The notes below the pieces were generated by a model that did not search any database, had not been told where the DNA came from, and worked only from the letters and a program-made list of their open reading frames with translations. A stretch of 64,000 nt of DNA, taken from assembly GCA_027923505.1 (NCBI GenBank), contig BROI01000002.1:2480001-2544000 (forward strand). Direction: 5' to 3'. The DNA comes from Mayamaea pseudoterrestris (taxonomy: Eukaryota). Shown here in pieces: positions 10,326 to 59,876 of this stretch; position 1 is the stretch's first letter, and each line of letters starts with the position of its first letter. The position numbers and the translations under genes were made by a program.

Positions 10326-10430
10326 GACGAGATTGCAGAGTTGAGCGAGACGAGGTGATTGTGAAGTCGCAAACGAAAAGAAAAATCTTCGCGTGTGACA
10401 AAGAGCAAGTACCGGTACGATATTTTTGAA

Positions 10431-10565
10431 AATCAAAGTTTTTGGCAGTACACTTTGGCGTACAGTGCCAATAACTGTGAAAATCAAAGTTTTTGGCAGT
10501 ACACTGTGGATCACAGTGTCAATAATCAAAGTTTTTGGCAGTACACTTTGGCGTACAGTGCCAAT
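10431..10565. repeat. Three near-tandem copies of a 42-bp unit (AATCAAAGTTTTTGGCAGTACACTTTGGCGTACAGTGCCAAT)
   Basis: Copies start at 10431, 10482 and 10524. Copies 1 and 3 are identical; copy 2 has the variant CACTGTGGATCACAGTG. Confidence 0.92.
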
Positions 10566-10696
10566 ATCCTTCGGTCGAGCCATGGCTTCTCAGCTACTTT
10601 AGACCTGGCCGATGCCGATGATGCAGTGTTAATCAGCTACTACGACCAACGATTGGCCTCCCAGGTCAAGGCGACGATCGAGCCCTTACCGTTGCA

Positions 10697-15777: not shown

Positions 15778-15959
15778 CGTCTCTATATCGGCGAACAAGA
15801 CAAAAGAGGAACTAAAAAATAACGGAGAGAGGTGCGAGCAAGCTGGTGTCGGCGAGAATTGCGGTGCGACAGTCTATTCCTAGCACTCTGCTACACTGAT
15901 TTAATCTATATAGAAAGAGCAACTCATACAGCAGTCTTGTAGTCTGATGGGCCATAACT

Positions 15960-18000
15960 CATGGAACAAGACTATTGGGGTTGTCTTGAAAGCCACACAC
16001 TGTAGCACCATGGAGCTGGTTACTGTGTGGACCTCTGCCCTCCCAAACAACTGATGCTACATGTGAGCTGGGAATGATTGTTATCACTGCATACGTGTCT
16101 TCAAGCATAGCCAGAACAGAATTCATGGAAAAGAATACTGAGGGAGCCTTTGAAGGCCACACACTGTAGAACCATGGAGCTTGCTACTGTGTGGATCTTT
16201 GCCCTCCCAAACATGGAACAAGACTATTGAGGTTGTCTTGAAAGCCACACACTGTAGCACCATGGAGCTGGTTACTGTGTGGACCTCTGCCCTCCCAAAC
16301 AACTGATGCTACATGTGAGCTGGGAATGATTGTTATCACTGCATACGTGTCTTCAAGCATAGCCAGAACAGAATTCATGGAAAAGAATACTGAGGGAGCC
16401 TTTGAAGGCCACACACTGTAGAACCATGGAGCTTGCTACTGTGTGGATCTTTGCCCTCCCAAACCACTGATGCTACATGTGAGCTGGGAATGACTGTTAT
16501 GCACCAATCCCACCGCATACAAGTCCCCAAGGATAGCCAGAACAGAATTCATGGAAAAAGATTGCTGAGGGAGCCCTTGAAGGCCACACACTGTAGCACC
16601 ATGCAGCTTGCTACTGTTGGATGTTTGCCCTCCCAAACAACTGATGCTACATGTGAGCTGGGAATGTTGTTATGCACCAATCTCACCACATACGTGTCTT
16701 CAAGCATAGCCAGAACAGAAGTCATGGAACAAGACTATTGGTGGTAGTCTTTGAAGGCCACACACTGTAGCACCATGGAGCTTGCTACTGTCGGATGTTT
16801 GCCCTCCCAAACAACTGATGCAACACATGAGCTGGGAATGATTGTTATGCACCAATCTCACCACATATGTGTCCCTAAGCATAGCCAGAACAGGATTCAT
16901 GGAAAAAGACTACTGAGGGAGCCTTTGAAGGCCACACACTGTAGCACCATGGAGCTGGTTACTGTGTGGACCTCTGCCCTCCCAAACAACTGATGCAACA
17001 CGTGAGCTGGGAATGATTGTTACGCACCAATCTCACCACATACGTGTCCCCAAGCATAGCCAGAACAGAATTCATGGAAAATGACTATTGGTGGTAGTCT
17101 TTGAAGGCCACACACTGTAGCACCATGGAGCTTGCTACTGTCGGATGTTTGCCCTCCCAAACAACTGATGCAACACGTGAGCTGGGAATGATTGTTATGC
17201 ACCAATCCCACCACATACAAGTCCCCAAGGATAGCCAGAACAGGATTCATGGAACAAGACTACTGAGGGAGCCTTTGAAGGCCACACTGTAGCACCATGC
17301 AGCTTGCTACTGTTGGATGTTTGCCCGCCCAAACAACTGATGCTACATGTGAGCTGGGAATGATTGTTATGCACCAATCCCACTGCGTACAAGTCCCCAA
17401 GGATAGCCAGAACAGGATTCATGGAACAAGACTACTGAGGGAGCCTTTGAAGGCCACACTGTAGCACCATGCAGCTTGCTACTGTTGGATGTTTGCCCTC
17501 CCAAACAACTGATGCTACATGTGAGCTGGAAATGTTGTTATGCACCAATCTCACCTTATAAGTGTCACCAAGGATAGCCAGAACAGAATTTATGGAACAA
17601 GACTACTGAGGGAGCCTTTGAAGGCCACACACGGTAGCACCATGGAGCTTGCTACTGTGTGGATGTTTGCCCTCCCAAACAACTGATGCTATATGTGAGC
17701 TGCAAAAGATTGTTGTGCACCAATCTCACCACATATGTGTCCCCAAGCATAGCTTAAACAGAATTCATGGAACAAGACTATTGAGAGTAGTCTCTGAAGG
17801 CCACACACTGTAGCATCATGGAGCTGGTTACTGTGTGGACCTCTGCCCTCCCAAACAACTGATGCAACACGTGAGCTGGGAATGATTGTTACGCACCAAT
17901 CTCACCACATACGTGTCCCCAAGCATAGTCAAAACAGAACTTATGGAACAAGACTATTGGGGGTAGTCTCTGAAGGCCACACTGTAGCACCATGGAGCTG
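15960..18000. repeat. Tandem satellite-like array A, ~175-bp monomer, ~12 copies, with higher-order structure
   Basis: TGAAGGCCACAC recurs at ~16150, 16402, 16578, 16752, 16926, 17102, 17276, 17447, 17619, 17795 and 17971. Near-identical spurious ORFs are offset by 252 bp (16162/16414) and 350 bp (16751/17101). Confidence 0.97.
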
Positions 18001-18381
18001 GTTGTGGTAGGATATATCTTAACATGCTTCACAACATTATTTGGAATACTGCGTTGTTACGTAGATGATGTCATGGTTTGGCGCATGCAATGGCCCCTTA
18101 CGATGATCGTGTTATCTAGCCCAAGCACAATGCTTTACTTTAGGAGTATGCTCTCAGAGAGCCATCAATTACCTATCAACTACTGCAACCCCAGCCTCTC
18201 CATCTGTTCCATATAGACTAAAATCGTTAACACCAACCCATTAAATCGTTGCTTTGAAGGCCAGTGTTGTTCTGACTGTGTCTACTGTTTGACATTTTTG
18301 TGTGTGCGGAGCGCGCAAAAGTCTTCGCAGGCTTTGTGAAACCATTGTTCCTACCACCTCCCCACCCCACAAGTGTGTTTT

Positions 18382-50572: not shown

Positions 50573-53500
50573 ATGGCGGCTCTTGCGAGACATCTACAGG
50601 TATGCTTGATTCTACTCAGTACCCCATTGACCTTTGGTTTGTCAGTGAAATCGTCAAGCTTTTTGGGTCAGTCGCTGGTGTCTACAAGTCGGACTGCTGC
50701 CGATGCCATGGATGACGATGGTCGCTTTGGCAGCCATGCCTCTCTGTTCATGCGAAAGCAAAAGGCGTCAGACAAACGCACCAGACGAAAGCAGCGAGGA
50801 ATACTGACAAACGATGAAATTATAGGGCCCATCACCGTCACTGAATCGCCCATGGAAGTGACAGGCCCATGGAGAGGCAAGACAATTCAACCAAAACACT
50901 TCCGTGGTGTCGCACCTTCAATCAAGGCAGTTACAAAGATTGGAGGCAGAGGAAGGTCCAGAAAACGGAGCACCCTTTATAGCAGTCTTTCTTTCTACCA
51001 TAATTATTTCCTTAAATTGCTGACTCTAGAATATCAAGTTGAGGTGAGTCTTGACGTCTTGACAAGGTGGCTCGACAAGGATGCTGCATTCGACGAATCT
51101 GTCAACGAATCTCCAGAGAAGAAGGGTATTGAAGGCCACTTTGGCATTGAAACGCAGCCATCTCATTCCCGTGGCTCTCTATTACAGGAAGAAGAAGTTC
51201 TGAGTCGAATCAAAGCGAGTCTTGACAGTCCGTTATCTTTGGAGCTCAGTGGGTATGCACTCTTTGATATGTTTCCTTCGAGACGCGGCAATCTCTTTTC
51301 GGATGAGGTCTATCGGCTTATAAAGGCATTCGATGCTGCATCTGTATACCATCGAGACGCAGATTATGATGTTTTGCCAGCGTCTGCTGCGACAAACGAA
51401 ACGAATCTCCCTTCAAACCATCGATTTTCCAAGAATGATGTGATTATGCTCACTCTACAACCTAGCGGGAGTGGGGACTATTACAATCAAGCATCTCTGC
51501 CCACGAGTGATACTGCCGTGACCTTGGAAGCCCGGGTTCTGAACACAGGACCCACCTATGTCGACATTGCCGTGCCGGCTGGTAAATTTGAGGCAGCATT
51601 TGGGCCGGCACCGAACGACCGATATAACAAGGGCGATTCCTCAATGCGACTACGAATGGATCGATTCTTTTCCAAAGTCCCGTACGAAAGGATGGTGCAA
51701 GCTCTGGGACAGCTCACGAGCATTTCAACTCGACGCAAGGCTGAGGATTTGCCGAGCGATTCTAAGGTGCAGCCTTCGGACGACAAGCCAAACTATCTCG
51801 ACTCAATTGTCATGGACGAAGTGATACGAGAAACAATTTTAAAAACTCATGCGTACGCGAACTCAGAGAGTCCGCTTTATGGAGATGCGGATGCTTGCGA
51901 CCTTGAAGAACTTGTAAGTGTCACTTCTGGGTGGCCAACGCTGTACTTTAAAGTCCTTGGCCTCAACCATTTTTATTCACTGTCAATCTAGGCAAACAAA
52001 ATAGCAAAGCCTCCAATGCGCACTTCGCACAAGCTGGCCACTGGCGCTCTGGCATTTATCGATACTAGACCAGACATATTCACAAAGTTTAATGCTCCTC
52101 AACGGGCTGCGATTGAAGCTGCACTGACGCGTCGCTTGACCATGATTCAAGGTCCTCCTGGCTCGGTAAAATTTTGTTGCATTTTTCGTTATCCTAATGC
52201 TCAAGAAACTGGGTCCGCTCACATTGTCACTAACATTTTCCTCCTATGTTAATAGGGCAAAACAACAGTTGCTGCGGCCATTGCCTTTGGTTATGCCAAG
52301 CAATGCCGAGCAATTTCGCCACACACGAAGGTACTGGCGTGTGCATTTAGCAATGTTGGAGCGGACAACCTCGCAGAGGCCATACAGGGTCTTGGCTTGC
52401 GAGTCATCCGAGTCGGCAAGGCGTCAGCTATTGCTGAGTCACTTTGGAACATAACGCTTGACGCTGCAATTGACCGCGATAACGACGCTATTTCAGCGTT
52501 ACGGGTCGCGAGTCGGGCAACCACTGCCGCAGCAAAATTGGGCGCGAGCACGACCTATGGACTTGGTGAACGATCTGTGAAAGACGCAGCAACTAACGCC
52601 GTGAAAGAGGCCAATCGCGCGTGCAACATCGCTGCCACGAAAGCTTTGCGGGAAGCGGATATAATCATATCTACTTCTAGCGGCGCCGCCGATCCAAGAC
52701 TGCTCGCGGCTTGCGGTATCACTGAAAAAGAATCGGATGAATTTGCGCCGTCTCAGTTCGCTGCCGTCAAGGATGAACAGCGGACTGTGCGAGAGCTAGC
52801 TCCAGACGCCAAACCTCCCTTGTCACTACCGTTTGTCCTTATAGACGAAGCTTGCCAAAGCGTGGAACCGGCGACGATCATCCCCGTGTTATCATCCAAC
52901 AGTTGTCGATCTCTTGTGTTGCTAGGAGATCCTTGCCAGTTGCCACCAACAGTCCGCAGCCATGATGCGAGCTCTCTCTCGCTTTCCCTCATGGAACGCT
53001 TGTCAATTGTGATGCCTAAACCTACTGTTATCTCATCTCGAGTGGACACGACAATAAGCGATACATCATACATGGACACACTGGCTGTTAAACAATCCAA
53101 GTCACTTATGCGCTCAATGGAGTCAAGCCCGAATAACATATCCTACCGCAAGCGCTTTGGTGGAGCGATGTTGCTGTCAGTGCAATACCGCATGCATCCG
53201 AGCATCTCTGCCTTCCCTTCAGCAGTGTTTTATGATGGACTCTTAGCAACACCTGCTTTTTTGTCGCCGCTCCGGCCTTTCCCAGCAGTATTAAAATCCT
53301 TAATGCCGAACGGCAATTTTCTTGTGCAAAACATCAGGATAATAAATGTTGGTGGACGCGGCAATGAGCGCCAGGGATTGTTGAAGGACTCTTCGTTGGC
53401 GCCATCGTCGATGGAACAGACAAGTTACTGGAATGAACGCGAAGGGTTGCGTGTGGTGTCGCTGCTCAAGAAACTACTTCAAGGAGAGATTAAAAACATC

Positions 53501-53851
53501 GAGACTGTTGGGATCATCTCGCCATACAATGGTCAGGTTCAGCTGATCAAATCTATTATGGCTGATGATAAGGATTTGCGTGATCTTCTTGATGAGGTGT
53601 CCATCTCGGTCGAGGTCAACAGTGTCGATGGGTACCAAGGAAGGGAGCGAGATGTCATCATCTTCTCGTCGGTCCGAAGCAACCGACATGGTCGCATTGG
53701 CTTTCTTCATGATTGGCGTCGCATGAATGTTGCCATGACCCGCGCCAAATCGGCGTTTCTATTCGTTGGCGACCTCGAGACGCTGTCAATTGACAAGCAT
53801 TGGGCTGCATTCGCCAAATACGCGCGTGGACTAGACATTGTGTTCTTTTGA
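50573..53851 (+). CDS. UPF1/NAM7-like superfamily-1 helicase with N-terminal signal + transit-like peptide; introns 51044-51187, 51914-51991, 52166-52255
   Basis: FNAPQRAAI...IQGPPGS|GKTT, AFSNVGADNL, IDEACQSVEP, LGDPCQLPP, QYRMHPSI, IISPYNGQV, VDGYQGRERD, RRMNVAMTRAK. Confidence 0.92.
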
Positions 53852-54339
53852 TAACCTCTCGTAATGTAGTAGTTCAGTGCTGCTCTTTATTCGACTATGT
53901 GAATACAAGCTGACCTGACGGTCTGTGGCACTTCCCCGCCCCTTGACTATCACTGCTGTAGTGTGTACCAGTAGAATGCTGCTGCTGCTAATTCTCCAGA
54001 TGCAACTATTATAGGTAGTAGGGATGTGCAGTATAATATAGAGCAGATCAGAGTCAATTTGTGTTGCAAGGATTGGCTCCGTGGATGTGTGTACTACTTT
54101 CACATTGTAACACATTCCTTGCTCAGTAGGCAAAAGTGGACCAATGGTAAATAAATGCTTGATACATACTGGACAAATTGCTAGCCCAGTCTCACTTTAG
54201 GGCCTTTTCTTTGGCACTTGGCAAGGTACTGTACTGGGCACCTTTGGCTTCGTAACCTCCACGCTGGACAAGCTATATAACACTGGTTGCGCAGGCTCCA
54301 TACTGGAACTGAAAAAGATTGAGCTGACTCCCTTACCAG

Positions 54340-54635
54340 TCACAGCCCACAGATGCGTAGACATTCCATTGCCCATATAACATGCCATGTATACACCCAA
54401 ATCACACCAGAATGGTGCCAACATCATTATTCAGTCTGCGCTACAAGTTGGTATGCCTGGTGGGTGTCTCAGTAGACTGCATTGTCTCAGCCCACAGATG
54501 CCTTGACATTCCATTGCCCATATAACATGCCATGTATACACCCAAATCACACCAGAATGATGCCAACATCATTATTCTGTCTGCGCTACAAGATGGTATA
54601 CCTGGCGGGTGTCCTTGTAGACTGCAATGTGACTG
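54340..54635. repeat. Two tandem ~145-bp copies of a unit (type C) on the left flank of array B
   Basis: GCCATGTATACACCCAAATCACACCAGAATG(G/A)TGCCAACATCATTATTC at 54384 and 54529. Confidence 0.92.
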
Positions 54636-54654
54636 TGACAAGTTGTCACCAGTC

Positions 54655-57600
54655 TCAGCCGAGTCTCACCTTGACATACATGGTTGTGGAGTCTGGAATG
54701 GGTGGGTGCAACTGACCTACGCATTAGCCCACCATGGCTCCAAACATGAATTGGAAAGAATTGGAGGGCTCAACAGGCAACAATGATGGTTTGTGTAGCC
54801 ATAAAGGGTGCACGGCTGGCACATTCAACCAATGGTTGGCTGTGCGGAGTGTCATGGTAAAGGTATGGGTTTCACCCCCAAGGTGACAAGCCTTTGCGTA
54901 ATTATCACTTAAAAATGTATGTTCCTTGTAATCCAGAACAGGCAGGCCATTCTGGCAGTCTGAAGTGCCACTTGAGGTGCGCTGCTGGCAGAACCTACAA
55001 GTTGTTGGGTCTGCCGAGTCTCATCATGACATACATGGTGGTGGAGACTGGAATGGGTGGGTGCAACTGACCTAAGCATTGGTCCATCATGGCTCCAAAC
55101 ATGAATTGGAGGGCTCAACTGGCAACAATGATGGTTCGTGTAGCCATAACGGCTGGCACATTCAACCAATGGTTGAATGTGCGGAGTGTCATGGCAAAGG
55201 TATGGGTTTCACACCCAAGGTGACACACCTTTGTGCTCTAATCACTTAAAAATGTATGTTCCTTGTAATCCAGAAATGGCAGGCCATTCTGGCAGTCTGA
55301 AGTGCCACTTGAGGTGCGCTGCTGGCAGATCCTACAAGTTGTTGGGTCTGCCGAGTCTCACCGTGACATACATGGTGGTGGAGACTGGAATGGGTGGGTG
55401 CAACTGACCTAAGCATTGGCCCATCATGGCTCCAAACATGAATTGGAAAGAATTGGAGGGCTCAACAGGCAAAAATGATGGTTCGTGTAGCCATAAAGGG
55501 TGCACGGCTGGCACATTCAACCAATGGTTGAATGTGCGGAGTCTCATGGCAAAGGGATGGGTTTCACACCCAAAGTGACAAGCCTTTGCGCTCTAATCAC
55601 TTAAGAAATGTATTTGCTTTGTATTCCGGAACTGGCAGGCCATTCTAGCAGTCTGAAGTGCCACTTGAGGTGCGCTGCTAGCAGATCCAACAAATTGTTG
55701 GGTCTGCCGAGTCTCACCATGACATACATGGTGGTGGAGACTGGAATGGGGGGGGTGCAACTCCAAACATGAATTGGAGGGCTCAACAGGCAAAAATGAT
55801 GGTTCGTGTAGCCATAAAGGGTGCACGGCTGGCACATTCAACCAATGGTTGAATGTGCGGAGTGTCATGGCAAAGGTATGGGTTTCACACCCAAGGTGGC
55901 ATGCCTTTGCACTCTAATCACTTAAGAAATGTATGTTCTTTGTATTCCGGAACTGTCAGGCCATTCTGGCAGTCTGAAGTGCCACTTGAGGTGCGCTGCT
56001 GGCAGATCCTACAAGTTGTTGGGTCTGCCGAGTCTCACCATGACATACAGACTGGAATGGGTGGGTGCAACTGACCTAAGCATTGACCTATCATGGCTCC
56101 AAACATGAATTGGAAAGAATTGGAGGGCTCAACAGGCAACAATGATGGTTTGTGTAGCCATAAAGGGTGCACGGCTGGCACATTCAACCAATGGTTGAAT
56201 GTGCGGAATCTCATGGCAAAGGGATGGGTTTCACACCCAAGGTGACAAGCCTTTGCGCTCTAATCACTTAAGAAATGTATTTGCTTTGTATTCCGGAACT
56301 GGCAGGCCATTCTAGCAGTCTGAAGTGCCACTTGAGGTGCGCTGCTAGCAGATCCAACAAGTTGTTGGGTCTGCCGAGTCTCACCATGACATACATGGTG
56401 GTGGAGACTGGAATGGGTGGGTGCAACTCCAAACATGAATTGGAGGGCTCAACTGGCAACAATGATGGTTTGTGTAGCCATAAAGGATGCACGGCTGGCA
56501 CATTCAACCAATGGTTGAATGTGCGGAGTGTCATGGCAAAGGTATGGGTTTCACACCCAAGGTGACACACCTTTGTGCTCTAATCACTTAAAAATGTATG
56601 TTCCTTGTAATCCAGAAATGGCAGGCCATTCTGGCAGTCTGAAGTGCCACTTGAGGTGCGCTGCTGGCAGATCCTACAAGTTGTTGGGTCTGCCGAGTCT
56701 CACCGTGACATACATGGTGGTGGAGACTGGAATGGGTGGGTGCAACTGACCTAAGCATTGACCCATCATGGCTCCAAACATGAATTGGAGGGCTCAACAG
56801 GCAACAATGATGGTTCGTGTAGCCATAAAGGGTGCACGGCTGGCACATTCAACCAATGGTTGAATGTGCGGAGTGTCATGGCAAAGGTATGGGTTTCACA
56901 CCCAAGGTGACACACCTTTGCACTCTAATCACTTAAGAAATGTATGTTCTTTGTATTCCAGAACTGGCAGGCCATTCTAGCAGTCTGAAGTGCCACTTGA
57001 GGTGTGCTCCTGGCAGATCCTACAAGATGTTGGGTCTGCCGAGTCTCACCATGCCATACAGACTGGAATGGGTGGGTGCAACTGACCTAAGCATTGACCT
57101 ATCATGGCTCCAAACATGAATTGGAAAGAATTGGAGGGCTCAACAGGCAACAATGATGGTTCGTGTAGCCATAAAGGGTGCACGGCTGGCACATTCAACC
57201 AATGGTTGAATGTGCGGAGTGTCATGGCAAAGGTATGGGTTTCACACCCAAGGTGACAAGCCTTTGCGCTCTAATCACTTAAGAAATGTATGTTCTTTGT
57301 ATTCCAGAACTGGCAGGCCATTCTGGCAGTCTGAAGTGCCACTTGAGGTGTGCTGCTGGCAGATCCTACAAGATGTTGGGTCTGCCGAGTCTCACCATGA
57401 CATACAGACTGGAATGGGTGGGTGCAACTGACCTAAGCATTGACCCATCATGGCTCCAAACATGAATTGGAGGGCTAAACAGGCAAAAATGATGGTTCGT
57501 GTAGCCATAAAGGGAGCACAGCTGGCACATTCAATTAAGGGTTGAATGTGCGGAGTGTCATGGCAAAGGTATGGATTTCACACCCAAGGTGACATGCCTT

Positions 57601-58240
57601 TGCACTCTAATCACTTAAGAGATGTTTTCGCTTTGTATTCCAGAACTGGCAGGCCATTCTGGCAGTCTGAAGTGCCACTTGAGGTGCGCTGCTAGCAGAT
57701 CCAACAAGTTGTTGGGTCTGCCAAGTCTCACCATGACATACATGGTGGTGGAGACTGGAATGGGTGGGTGCAACTGACCTAAGCATTGGCCCATCATGGC
57801 TCCAAACATGAATTGGAAAGAATTGGAGGGCGCAACAGGCAACAATGATGGTTCGTGTAGCCATAAAGGGTGCACAGCTGGCACATTCAACCAATGGTTG
57901 AATGTGCGGAGTCTCATGGCAAAGGGATGGGTTTCACACCCAAGGTGACACACCTTTGCACTCTAATCACTTAAGAGATGTTATGTTCTTGTATTCCAGA
58001 AATGGCAGGCCCTTCTGGCAGTCTGAAGTGCCACCTGAGGTGCGCTGCTAGCAGATCCAACACGTTGTTGGGTCTGCCTAGTCTCACCATGGCATACATG
58101 ATAGTGGAGACTGGACTGGGTGGGGGCAACTGACCTAAGCATTGCCATCATAGCTCCAAACATGAATTGGAAAGCATTGGAGGGCTCAACAGGCAACATT
58201 GATGGTTCGTGTAGCCATAAAGGGTGCACAGCTGGCACTG
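54655..58240. repeat. Tandem satellite-like array B, 320-356-bp monomer, ~10.5 copies
   Basis: ATCACTTAA anchor recurs near 54904, 55241, 55596, 55917, 56263, 56583, 56928, 57275, 57610 and 57966. Identical spurious ORFs at 55177 and 56519 are 1342 bp apart. Confidence 0.97.
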
Positions 58241-58263
58241 ACAATCAAATGCCCATGCAGCAA

Positions 58264-58370
58264 GCCATGTATACACCCAAATTACACCAGAATGGTGCCA
58301 ACATCATTATTCAGTCTGCGCTACAAGATGTTATGCATGGCAGGTGTCCTTGTAGACGGCAATGTGACTG
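58264..58370. repeat. Third copy of the type-C unit on the right flank of array B, in direct orientation
   Basis: GCCATGTATACACCCAAATTACACCAGAATGGTGCCAACATCATTATTCAGTCTGCGCTACAAG...GTGTCCTTGTAGAC.GCAATGTGACTG matches 54529-54635. Confidence 0.92.
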
Positions 58371-58805
58371 GTGAAAATATCCCACTACCTAGTCTCAGCC
58401 TGCCAATGCCATGACATCTGGTTGGTAGCTGCAGTTACCTGGGACTTTATCAATTGAAGTGTTCCAGTTGGGCATGACTGTTGCTCTGCTACTCGTGGTG
58501 TAGGGCCAATCTCTATTGAGTATGGTTGGTACATAGCTGCATAGATTGGACCCCAACTATCGTACCGGTACGACTTTGTGTCTTCATCACGGTGCGACAT
58601 GACGTTCACACGAAAGAAGAAGCGCACGATCCCACACGCATGGCAGCTTCGCTTCCTTGGAAGTAAATAAGAGCGAGAGTTGCCCCAGTTAATGCACCTT
58701 TGATCACTGTCAATATAATGTAAGCACAGGACTTGGATAGGCACCACAATGTACTTTCTAGTTCCTAGCTCAGTGGCAACGAGCAACGAAACAAGGATAA
58801 AAATT

Positions 58806-59876
58806 ATGACTGAGCATGTCAGCAGCCTAATTGCCAGCAACAACTGGGATCAGCTCTATGAATTCATAGAATCAAACCCAATTACTGCCATAGGCGAGTT
58901 TCCGCCTTATTGCACACGCCTTCACCAGTTGTGTTCGATTGGCAGTGCGCCCGTCGCGCTGATCGATTTGGTCGCACGAATCGACCCATCTGCCATTATC
59001 CAAACAGAGCGAATGCATGGAGATACGTGCCTTCACATTATTGCAAGGAACAGTCAAATAAGCGCAACGAAATTGAAAAGTCTGCTTGGTCATTTAGAAG
59101 AGAAGAATCGAGATGGAATGTTAATTCGAAATATGTTAGGTGGAACGGCGCTTCACTCGGCCGCCAATCACAATGCTGTGCTTGAAGCCTTCCAGATCCT
59201 TGTTATCAGCAATGTACAAATAATCCGAATGACTACCTTGGATGGCACACATGCTATTTCGACTCTCTGGAACTCGTTCATCCAGACCATTCCTGGGACC
59301 ATGTTGGTGGCACGAATGTTGAAACAAGCTGAAGCTGTACATGATCCGTTATTTGAACGCTTTTGGAGCAAGGCTGAGTTCCTGGCGCTTGAGTATGTCC
59401 GATTTCTCGGTTTGACAGATGTCCAAAATATTTCTGACAGTGGTTCTTGCGTGCTTCATGGTCTTTTGAAATTGAACGCGGTGATCAAATTTTTCGAGGT
59501 GGCGTTGAAAAGGAATCGAGCGTTTGCTCTTGCTCGTGACGTCGAAGGAAATCTCCCAATTCATAGATTACTCGAATACCGTCCCTATCGTTTAAAGGAG
59601 CGCGATGCAATTCGGTCTTTGTTGGAAGCAGCTCCTGAAGCTGCAATGGTGATGAATGACTTCAATGACTGTCCTCTGCTGCTGGCAATACGCAATCGCA
59701 TTCCGTGGGAAAATGGAGTTGACATAGTAGCACAACAGGGCCGTGACGTCATTGCAATTAGGGAGGTCAAGACACGATTGCTACCGTTTCAGTATGCTGC
59801 TTTCATTGGAGGACGAGTTGCGGTGGAGACGACGTTCCAATTACTCATTATGCGACCAGATTTATTGAAATGCTAA
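58806..59876 (+). CDS. Ankyrin-repeat protein
   Basis: HGDTCLHIIA, GGTALHSAA, EGNLPIHRLL, CPLLLAI, TRLLPFQYAA; C-terminal TFQLLIMRPDLL. Confidence 0.85.
   Translation: MTEHVSSLIASNNWDQLYEFIESNPITAIGEFPPYCTRLHQLCSIGSAPVALIDLVARIDPSAIIQTERMHGDTCLHIIARNSQISATKLKSLLGHLEEKNRDGMLIRNMLGGTALHSAANHNAVLEAFQILVISNVQIIRMTTLDGTHAISTLWNSFIQTIPGTMLVARMLKQAEAVHDPLFERFWSKAEFLALEYVRFLGLTDVQNISDSGSCVLHGLLKLNAVIKFFEVALKRNRAFALARDVEGNLPIHRLLEYRPYRLKERDAIRSLLEAAPEAAMVMNDFNDCPLLLAIRNRIPWENGVDIVAQQGRDVIAIREVKTRLLPFQYAAFIGGRVAVETTFQLLIMRPDLLKC

What the first reader, a model, noticed from the sequence alone, without database searches (positions are those of the whole stretch)
54340..58420. Composite element: ~345-bp tandem array bracketed by direct repeats of a different unit
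Seen: ~10 copies of a 320-356-bp monomer, with two tandem ~145-bp type-C units on the left (54384, 54529) and one on the right (58264), all in the same orientation. The block sits in ~4.7 kb of CpG-poor, gene-free DNA (53852-58560) between two ordinary genes, in a genome with otherwise tiny intergenic gaps. No transposase, RT or helicase is encoded. Inference: either a non-autonomous mobile element with terminal direct repeats and an internal satellite (TRIM/LARD-like or rolling-circle-derived), or the product of rolling-circle amplification and reinsertion. I do not recognise the family.
Basis: partly seen in the sequence, partly recalled or inferred. Interest (0 to 1): 0.8.

Follow-up and report, generated by a model that had tools for sequence, protein, structure and literature searches.

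The report
Nested satellites behind a Helitron-like end
This is one satellite DNA repeat inserted inside another, sitting behind a short conserved end that probably belongs to a rolling-circle transposon, so it is a probable case of a known way that tandem repeats spread, not a new element with terminal direct repeats.

Summary
The array is real: 10 full copies (319-356 bp) plus a 160-bp part at 54661-58238, in a CpG-poor island (o/e 0.25 against 1.0-1.1 in the flanking genes). The bracketing units are not terminal repeats. They are monomers of a genome-wide 169-bp satellite (C). The 346/356-bp satellite (A) entered a short C array with an 11-bp loss and grew locally. A arrays elsewhere start and end at scattered phases, so C-A-C is not a mobile unit. 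It recurs at about 20 sites with a sharp outer border and faces tandem repeats inward at 14 of 20. Read on the minus strand it ends hairpin-CTTG|T, like a Helitron 3' end. T-family sequence also follows the last C. Best reading: a non-autonomous Helitron-like T-C element later invaded by A. Against: no partner end, no matching transposase, no empty site, and only 1 of 64 other island ends carries T. The closest cases are oyster Cg_HINEs and Drosophila Rsp-like in 1.688. The scan had already noted A, C and patchwork islands on other DNA of this genome; a sequence look-up found no note on the cap.

The parts
52256..53851 (+). Last exon of the host SF1 helicase gene (left flank, not part of the island)
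   Evidence: ORF; Pfam AAA_12/AAA_11
53906..53945 (-). T cap: conserved 40-bp end of the island. On the minus strand it has a 4-bp hairpin (GACC-GTCA-GGTC), then ends CTTG followed by T (53905). Putative Helitron-like 3' terminus
   Evidence: (21 pattern hits, control 1)
53946..54335 (-). T1-subfamily body: CpG-poor non-coding sequence shared in part with about 11 other T copies
54339..54483 (+). C satellite monomer 1, a 145-bp variant lacking 24 bp that include the unit's palindrome
54484..54660 (+). C satellite monomer 2 (full length) plus the first 9 bp of the next monomer, ending in the 3-bp microhomology GCC with A
   Evidence: junction bridged by contigs of runs X1 and X2
54661..58238 (+). 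A satellite block: 10 full monomers (319-356 bp) plus 160 bp. Each monomer carries two related palindromes. The block ends at the start of the second palindrome
58239..58417 (+). C satellite resumes 11 bp downstream of the point where it was interrupted; about one monomer
58418..58555 (-). CpG-poor tail homologous to the body of T2-subfamily elements, in the same orientation as the cap. No recognisable terminus
   Evidence: (78% over 65 bp, E 2e-9; score 74 against a maximum of 41 in 200 shuffles), border
58719..59876 (+). Host ankyrin-like ORF (right flank, not part of the island)

Best explanation
The island was built in layers. (1) A non-autonomous, Helitron-like rolling-circle element of the T family, carrying a short array of the 169-bp C satellite, settled between two host genes. 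Its fixed end is the T cap and its other end is variable or eroded (fixed end shown; rolling-circle identity and insertion inferred). (2) A piece of the 346/356-bp A satellite from the C22/C40 subfamily entered the C array by repair-type template switching or circle reintegration, with 3 bp of microhomology on the left and an 11-bp loss (junctions shown; pathway inferred). (3) A grew locally by unequal exchange (shown by monophyly and duplicated blocks). (4) Long CG methylation and deamination removed CpG (depletion shown; methylation inferred from general knowledge, recalled).
For: T cap: 21 pattern hits against 1 control. The outer border is sharp, and ACAAG, which lies outside the search pattern, is conserved. 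The base outside the cap is A in 18 of 20 by script (19 by eye), so T follows CTTG on the minus strand. CTTG|T is a reported alternative Helitron end (PMC4778049, passages), and right ends are said to be less diverse than left ends (PMC11417382, passages). Tandem arrays lie inward at 14 of 20 caps and outward at 3 of 20, and belong to at least six unit types. Where C is the nearest satellite to a T1-type cap, it has the same orientation in 7 of 7. T-family body also lies beyond the last C. One cap begins both copies of a 573-bp head-to-tail duplication (L179/L180). The genome has four RepHel ORFs and two clear HLE2 mini-families. One of these (K) closes B-satellite islands at 6 of 19 loci examined, with the same B|K junction. 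The C phase continues across A. The 6 of 10 window monomers tested form one clade (support 0.957), 94.9% alike within and at most 92.8% to outside copies. Pairs 2/6, 3/5 and 7/8 are 98-99% alike.
Against: No partner end: all 17 genome hits of the candidate subterminal repeat are T caps themselves. No T cap lies in the ~19-27 kb fetched around any of the four RepHel ORFs (positions). The hairpin is short (4-5 bp), lies 5-6 nt from the end, and shows no significant covariation (169 of 500 shuffles as high). The end is CTTG, not CTRR. No empty site appeared in four runs from two studies. Only 1 of 64 outer island ends found through A or C has a T cap; 10 abut LTRs and 53 have no recognised end, so T does not explain most satellite dispersal. 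The one T2-type cap whose nearest satellite is C has it in the opposite orientation (L112). Some T sites are segmental duplicates (L182/L186), so 20 sites are fewer than 20 events.
Confidence: 0.55

Rival explanations
1. T is only the oldest resident: a small transposon end of any class that became methylated. C and then A arrived afterwards and independently by break repair or gene conversion from other arrays or from circular DNA. The satellites never travelled with T.
For: 53 of 64 island ends have no cap. Islands are patchworks of many families in any order and orientation. A ends are scattered over the monomer. An A array lies inside an LTR retrotransposon on C1 that itself has a 5-bp target duplication in an A array, so A can invade resident repeats. 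The T-to-C junction position differs between T1 copies.
Against: C has the same orientation behind all 7 T1-type caps where it is the nearest satellite, and arrays lie inward at 14 of 20 caps against outward at 3 of 20. T subfamilies tend to carry their own unit types (for example the 141-148-bp unit at L171, L173, L174, L179).
Confidence: 0.3
2. T is the end of a cut-and-paste DNA transposon or MITE family (for example Harbinger-like) with internal tandem repeats, whose second end has decayed.
For: A short open frame that looks by eye like a DDE transposase fragment lies inward of one cap (L168; the resemblance is recalled).
Against: Pfam finds nothing in that 129-aa frame at E 0.1. No inverted copy of the cap lies within 1.5 kb at any site, and none of the cap's inner 13-mer genome-wide. 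The same caps also front copia fragments, so the fragment may be cargo.
Confidence: 0.08
3. One reading: C-[A]n-C is one non-autonomous element with terminal direct repeats (TRIM/LARD-like), or one rolling-circle concatemer of A.
For: Same-strand C units bracket A here. C-A adjacency recurs on C22, C33, C18 and C8.
Against: C is a free-standing 169-bp satellite. The left and right C copies are different variants and different phases of the unit. C-A junctions elsewhere differ in phase and orientation. There are no TG...CA ends (by eye) and no target duplication of 4 bp or more was seen (anchor two bases off; rechecked by eye). A has no fixed terminus, unlike the true head-to-tail concatemer K.
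Confidence: 0.04
4. The island is a functional centromere or another selected chromosomal element.
For: Units are nucleosome-sized (13 of 19 repeat clusters have periods of 162-184 or 331-381 bp) and contain conserved palindromes.
Against: The island is only 4.7 kb, and single contigs carry several such islands (C6 at least five, and positions). Nothing here tests function.
Confidence: 0.03

Closest known systems
Cg_HINE elements of the Pacific oyster (PMC7492417; abstract, introduction, start of results and passages read)
   Same: Short dispersed arrays of ~160-180-bp satellite-like repeats sit behind conserved terminal modules of non-autonomous rolling-circle elements; occasionally two different arrays lie in one element.
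   Different: Cg_HINEs have both modules, subterminal inverted repeats, T-rich targets and a fixed orientation of the repeats. Here T has one fixed end, no subterminal partner, and most islands have no cap and mix many families in either orientation.
Rsp-like insertions into 1.688 satellite clusters, Drosophila simulans clade (PMC7403614; passages read)
   Same: One satellite inserted into an existing short array of a more abundant one, with microhomology at one junction, a small deletion in the interrupted repeat, and local growth by unequal exchange.
   Different: There the same junction type is shared by many clusters. Here A junctions are scattered, and many more families take part.
HLE1 (canonical Helitron) 3' end, incl. 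Helraiser (PMC4778049, PMC11417382; passages read)
   Same: One conserved end with a hairpin, followed by host T; no target duplication seen; captured fragments of other repeats; CTTG reported as an alternative end.
   Different: CTTG rather than CTRR; a 4-5-bp stem 5-6 nt from the end rather than a 19-bp palindrome 11 nt from it; no A|TC 5' end and no matching RepHel identified.
HINE/DINE-1 and Helitron2 (PMC4067079, PMC5148889; passages read)
   Same: The K and M families of this genome fit well: subterminal repeats, a TT target for K, head-to-tail copies and an autonomous partner. K sits at 18004-18380 of this window.
   Different: The T cap of this finding fails the subterminal-repeat test.

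Membership tests
TRIM/LARD (non-autonomous LTR element) | Terminal direct repeats that occur only as element ends, usually TG...CA | tested here: not met
   C forms its own long tandem arrays; left and right copies differ in phase
TRIM/LARD (non-autonomous LTR element) | 4-6-bp target-site duplication | tested here: not met
   C sequence is lost (11 bp), not duplicated, around A; no repeat of 4 bp or more at the island ends (and by eye); the right end is not sharply defined
TRIM/LARD (non-autonomous LTR element) | Primer-binding site and polypurine tract | not tested
   Not run, because the terminal-repeat test had failed
HLE1 Helitron (T family) | 3' end CTRR followed by host T | tested here: inconclusive
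   CTTG followed by T at 18 of 20 by script; not CTRR, but CTTG|T is reported (PMC4778049). The T may belong to the element
HLE1 Helitron (T family) | [quoted passage not shown] | tested here: inconclusive
   A 4-5-bp stem in most copies; 93% of cells paired, no significant covariation, and the copies were chosen by a pattern holding the stem
HLE1 Helitron (T family) | 5' end TC after host A, shared among copies | tested here: inconclusive
   No shared far end recognised; several islands ran beyond what was fetched
HLE1 Helitron (T family) | Autonomous RepHel with the same ends | tested here: not met
   None of 21 cap hits lies near the four RepHel ORFs; two of the four have K or M ends; ends of the other two were not defined
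HLE1 Helitron (T family) | Empty site without target modification | tested here: inconclusive
   No joint skipping the island in four runs; contigs show presence, not absence
HLE2 / HINE (T family) | Subterminal inverted repeats of 11-17 bp at both ends | tested here: not met
   All 17 hits of the candidate repeat are caps; no inverted cap piece within 1.5 kb
HLE2 / HINE (K family, window 18004-18380) | Subterminal inverted repeats, TT target, autonomous partner | tested here: met
   11-bp repeats shared with the C25 RepHel element; TT before the 5' end in 16 of the 17 loci with a 5' match, of 19 examined
Satellite DNA (A and C) | Head-to-tail non-coding repeats in many arrays, copies more alike within than between arrays | tested here: met
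Retrozyme | Hammerhead or other self-cleaving ribozyme in the monomer | tested here: not met
   Rfam scan to E 5 gave only weak hairpin hits far below gathering scores
Centromeric satellite | CENH3 occupancy | not testable with these tools
   No chromatin data

The most novel reading that the evidence does not exclude
In this small, gene-dense, diatom-like genome, rolling-circle ends act as one-ended carriers. A single fixed terminus (T, or the HINE K) copies whatever methylated patchwork lies behind it (satellites of a dozen nucleosome-sized families, retrotransposon scraps) and drops it between genes. T would then be a terminus type that fits neither HLE1 nor HLE2, and heterochromatin islands would be mobile units.
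Probability: 0.25. Interest if true: 0.65.

Novelty: new member of a known kind. Interest (0 to 1): 0.36.

Why it matters
Satellite-in-satellite insertion and satellite carriage by rolling-circle elements are known from flies and oysters. Two full-text searches for diatom satellites or diatom Helitrons with tandem repeats (listings only; open-access library only) showed no paper describing them in diatoms. If T is a true Helitron-type end, it gives a handle of about 20 sites for testing how satellite islands spread in a compact genome: look for empty sites and circles with a T junction. The locus itself is an ordinary, old, silent repeat island.

Tried and rejected
LTR/TRIM reading: rejected. 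A as a head-to-tail concatemer of a mini-element with fixed ends: rejected, since 78 ends are not clustered (KS p 0.19, Rayleigh p about 0.15). There is a mild excess at the second palindrome (12 of 78 against 6.4 expected, p 0.024 uncorrected, one of two windows tested, ends not all independent and some imprecise). A derived from C or B: no similarity above shuffles. Ribozyme or known RNA: none; the monomer folds at z -2.8 and -2.6 on the two strands, so no strand is favoured. A CTAG|T end seen at the C12 island next to a RepHel matched no other of the island ends compared, as far as the cut output shows. The C12 RepHel has its own ends (M family) and does not include the A array. Subterminal-repeat partner for T: none. 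Transposase-like frame at L168: no Pfam hit. The A palindrome in metagenome contigs gave one hit in an AT-rich, bacterial-looking contig with no further similarity. Sequencing runs: no RNA holder listed, which says nothing on expression. C-to-C joints come from other C arrays and are not an empty site; summed depths over A and C are very high but are not copy numbers. The far ends of several T and K islands could not be fetched, so they remain unread. The taxon label 'diatom-like' rests on my reading of the genes and on earlier notes, not on a test. Supplements of the papers were not read; the HINE terminus tables in them could bear on classifying T.

Full report
Observation. The array and its brackets are real. 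TRF and the repeat finder give about 10.4 copies of a 346-356-bp unit and three same-strand copies of a shorter unit. The monomers (here called A) measure 319-356 bp, run from 54661 to 58238 and are 93.8% alike on average. CpG o/e is 0.25 in the island against 1.11 and 1.00 in the flanking helicase and ankyrin-like ORFs. It is the largest gap between long ORFs in the window. Public contigs bridge the left border, the C-to-A junction and the right border. Run X2, from a second study, does so at about the depth of the unique flanks. The A-to-C junction was not among the 30 pieces listed, and copy number could not be tested.

The brackets are a satellite. The window lies in a 30.6-Mb, 41-contig genome. 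A gave 298 matches from 26 of 134 candidates scored, on 16 contigs among the 150 rows listed. The bracket unit C gave 186 and 302 matches from 39 of 652 and 37 of 412 candidates. In 661 kb examined, C forms 80 TRF arrays in 41 regions, mostly with period 169 and up to 40-50 copies. The first window copy is a 145-bp deletion variant and the second is full length. C stops at 54660 and resumes at 58239, 11 bp further along its own unit. The left junction shares GCC between C and A. This is an insertion of A into a C array, not a pair of terminal repeats.

A has no ends of its own. The fetched islands are patchworks: 19 repeat clusters, 13 of them with periods of 162-184 or 331-381 bp, joined in any order and orientation. 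The 78 A ends mapped are spread over the monomer (KS p 0.19), with only a mild excess at one palindrome. The 6 of 10 window monomers that my anchor cut form one clade (0.957), closest to arrays on C22 and C40. Pairs of copies at 98-99% point to local block duplication. On C1 an A array lies inside an LTR retrotransposon, so A invades resident repeats.

The left part of the island is repeated: 16 matches from 13 candidates, aligned with a sharp outer border at 53906. A 20-letter pattern from this end gave 21 hits against 1 control; 20 are caps in the expected sense and one is a cap met from the other strand. Tandem arrays lie inward at 14 of 20 and outward at 3 of 20, with units of 45, 141-148, 169, 175, 179, 222 and 505 bp. 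Some caps also front copia fragments. On the minus strand the cap ends with a 4-5-bp hairpin, 5-6 more bases, CTTG, and then T in 18 of 20 by script. CTTG|T is a reported Helitron end (PMC4778049, passages). Where C is the nearest satellite to a T1-type cap it has one orientation in 7 of 7; one T2-type cap has it reversed. The 140 bp after the last C in the window match the body of T2 elements in the same orientation (E 2e-9). So T-family sequence lies on both sides of C-A-C.

Rolling-circle elements exist here. Four RepHel ORFs were found. The one on C25 has 11-bp subterminal inverted repeats and contains a head-to-tail array of its own 381-bp mini-element K. K is dispersed, follows TT in 16 of 17 loci with a 5' match, and closes B-satellite islands with the same junction at 6 of 19 loci examined, two of which are duplicates. 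One is the second island of this window. The C12 RepHel has another mini-family, M. These fit the HINE definition (PMC4067079, passages; PMC5148889, passages).

What speaks against. T has no subterminal partner: all 17 hits of the candidate repeat are caps. No cap lies near a RepHel. The hairpin shows no significant covariation. No empty site was seen. Of 64 outer island ends found through A or C, 1 has T, none has K or M, 10 abut LTRs and 53 have no recognised end. So rolling-circle carriage can explain this island and a minority of others, not the satellite system as a whole.

Mechanism. Most likely (0.55): a non-autonomous Helitron-like T element carrying C inserted between the two genes; A entered its C array by microhomology-type repair or circle reintegration; A grew by unequal exchange; methylation then stripped CpG. 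Shown: the anatomy, the junctions, the shared cap, local growth and CpG loss. Inferred: the class of T, that T and C moved together, the repair pathway, and methylation (recalled knowledge). The main rival (0.3) is that T was merely first and both satellites came later by repair or conversion. The A-into-C step holds under both.

Comparison. It works like oyster Cg_HINEs, where conserved rolling-circle ends carry 160-180-bp repeats (PMC7492417, first part and passages), and like Rsp-like entering 1.688 clusters in Drosophila (PMC7403614, passages). It is not a member of the TRIM/LARD class. T fails the HLE2 test and is inconclusive for HLE1 (definitions from PMC11417382, passages). Two searches showed no paper on such islands in diatoms. 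Earlier notes of this scan describe A, C and patchwork islands elsewhere in this genome; a look-up with the T stretch found no note.

Verdict. A real feature, explained by known processes, with one new and testable detail: the T cap. Interest 0.36.

Noticed in passing
window 15919-18380: Second CpG-poor island: a 175-bp satellite (B, 9.5 copies) closed on the right by a complete 377-bp HINE (K, 18004-18380). The same B|K junction recurs at 5 other loci of 19 examined.
   Followed up: partly
G000 C25:81050-92800 (L069-L070): Helentron/Helitron2-type element with a 2,373-aa RepHel frame, 11-bp subterminal inverted repeats and an internal head-to-tail array of its own 381-bp mini-element.
   Followed up: partly
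G000 C12:207750-213350 (L072-L073) and L155-L167: RepHel element of 1,823 aa with a ~1-kb non-autonomous family (M, 13 further 3' ends found), a 5' hairpin and TTAT-type borders. An A/B/H satellite island lies about 1 kb upstream.
   Followed up: partly
G000 C1:2375270-2377890 (L085): LTR retrotransposon with a 5-bp target duplication inside an A array, whose internal region holds another A array.
   Followed up: partly
L179/L180 (G000 C29:170880-172030): Exact 573-bp head-to-tail duplication that begins precisely at a T cap and ends inside a monomer, with 2 bp of microhomology.
   Followed up: no
A monomer, e.g. window 55156-55182 and 55322-55350: Two related palindromes with 11-12-bp arms and a variable 5-bp centre. 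The one at 55156 stays 93-100% identical between arrays that are otherwise 70-80% alike.
   Followed up: partly
loci: 13 of 19 tandem-repeat clusters, not similar by BLAST, have periods of 162-184 or 331-381 bp, suggesting convergence on a nucleosome repeat length.
   Followed up: no
L168:481-867 (minus strand): 129-aa open frame inward of a T cap that looks by eye like a DDE transposase fragment; no Pfam hit.
   Followed up: partly
L194 (G000 C3:748500-751500): A 1.2-kb near-perfect inverted duplication (99.7%) containing C monomers and short LTR-like repeats with a tRNA-like stretch.
   Followed up: no
window 10427-10566: Short 42-51-bp tandem repeat with a homologue on C23.
   Followed up: no
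G000 C6:982700-984900 and C6:1007000-1009600: Two A arrays share a 98% identical helicase-like flank; one copy has a retrotransposon fragment inserted.
   Followed up: no
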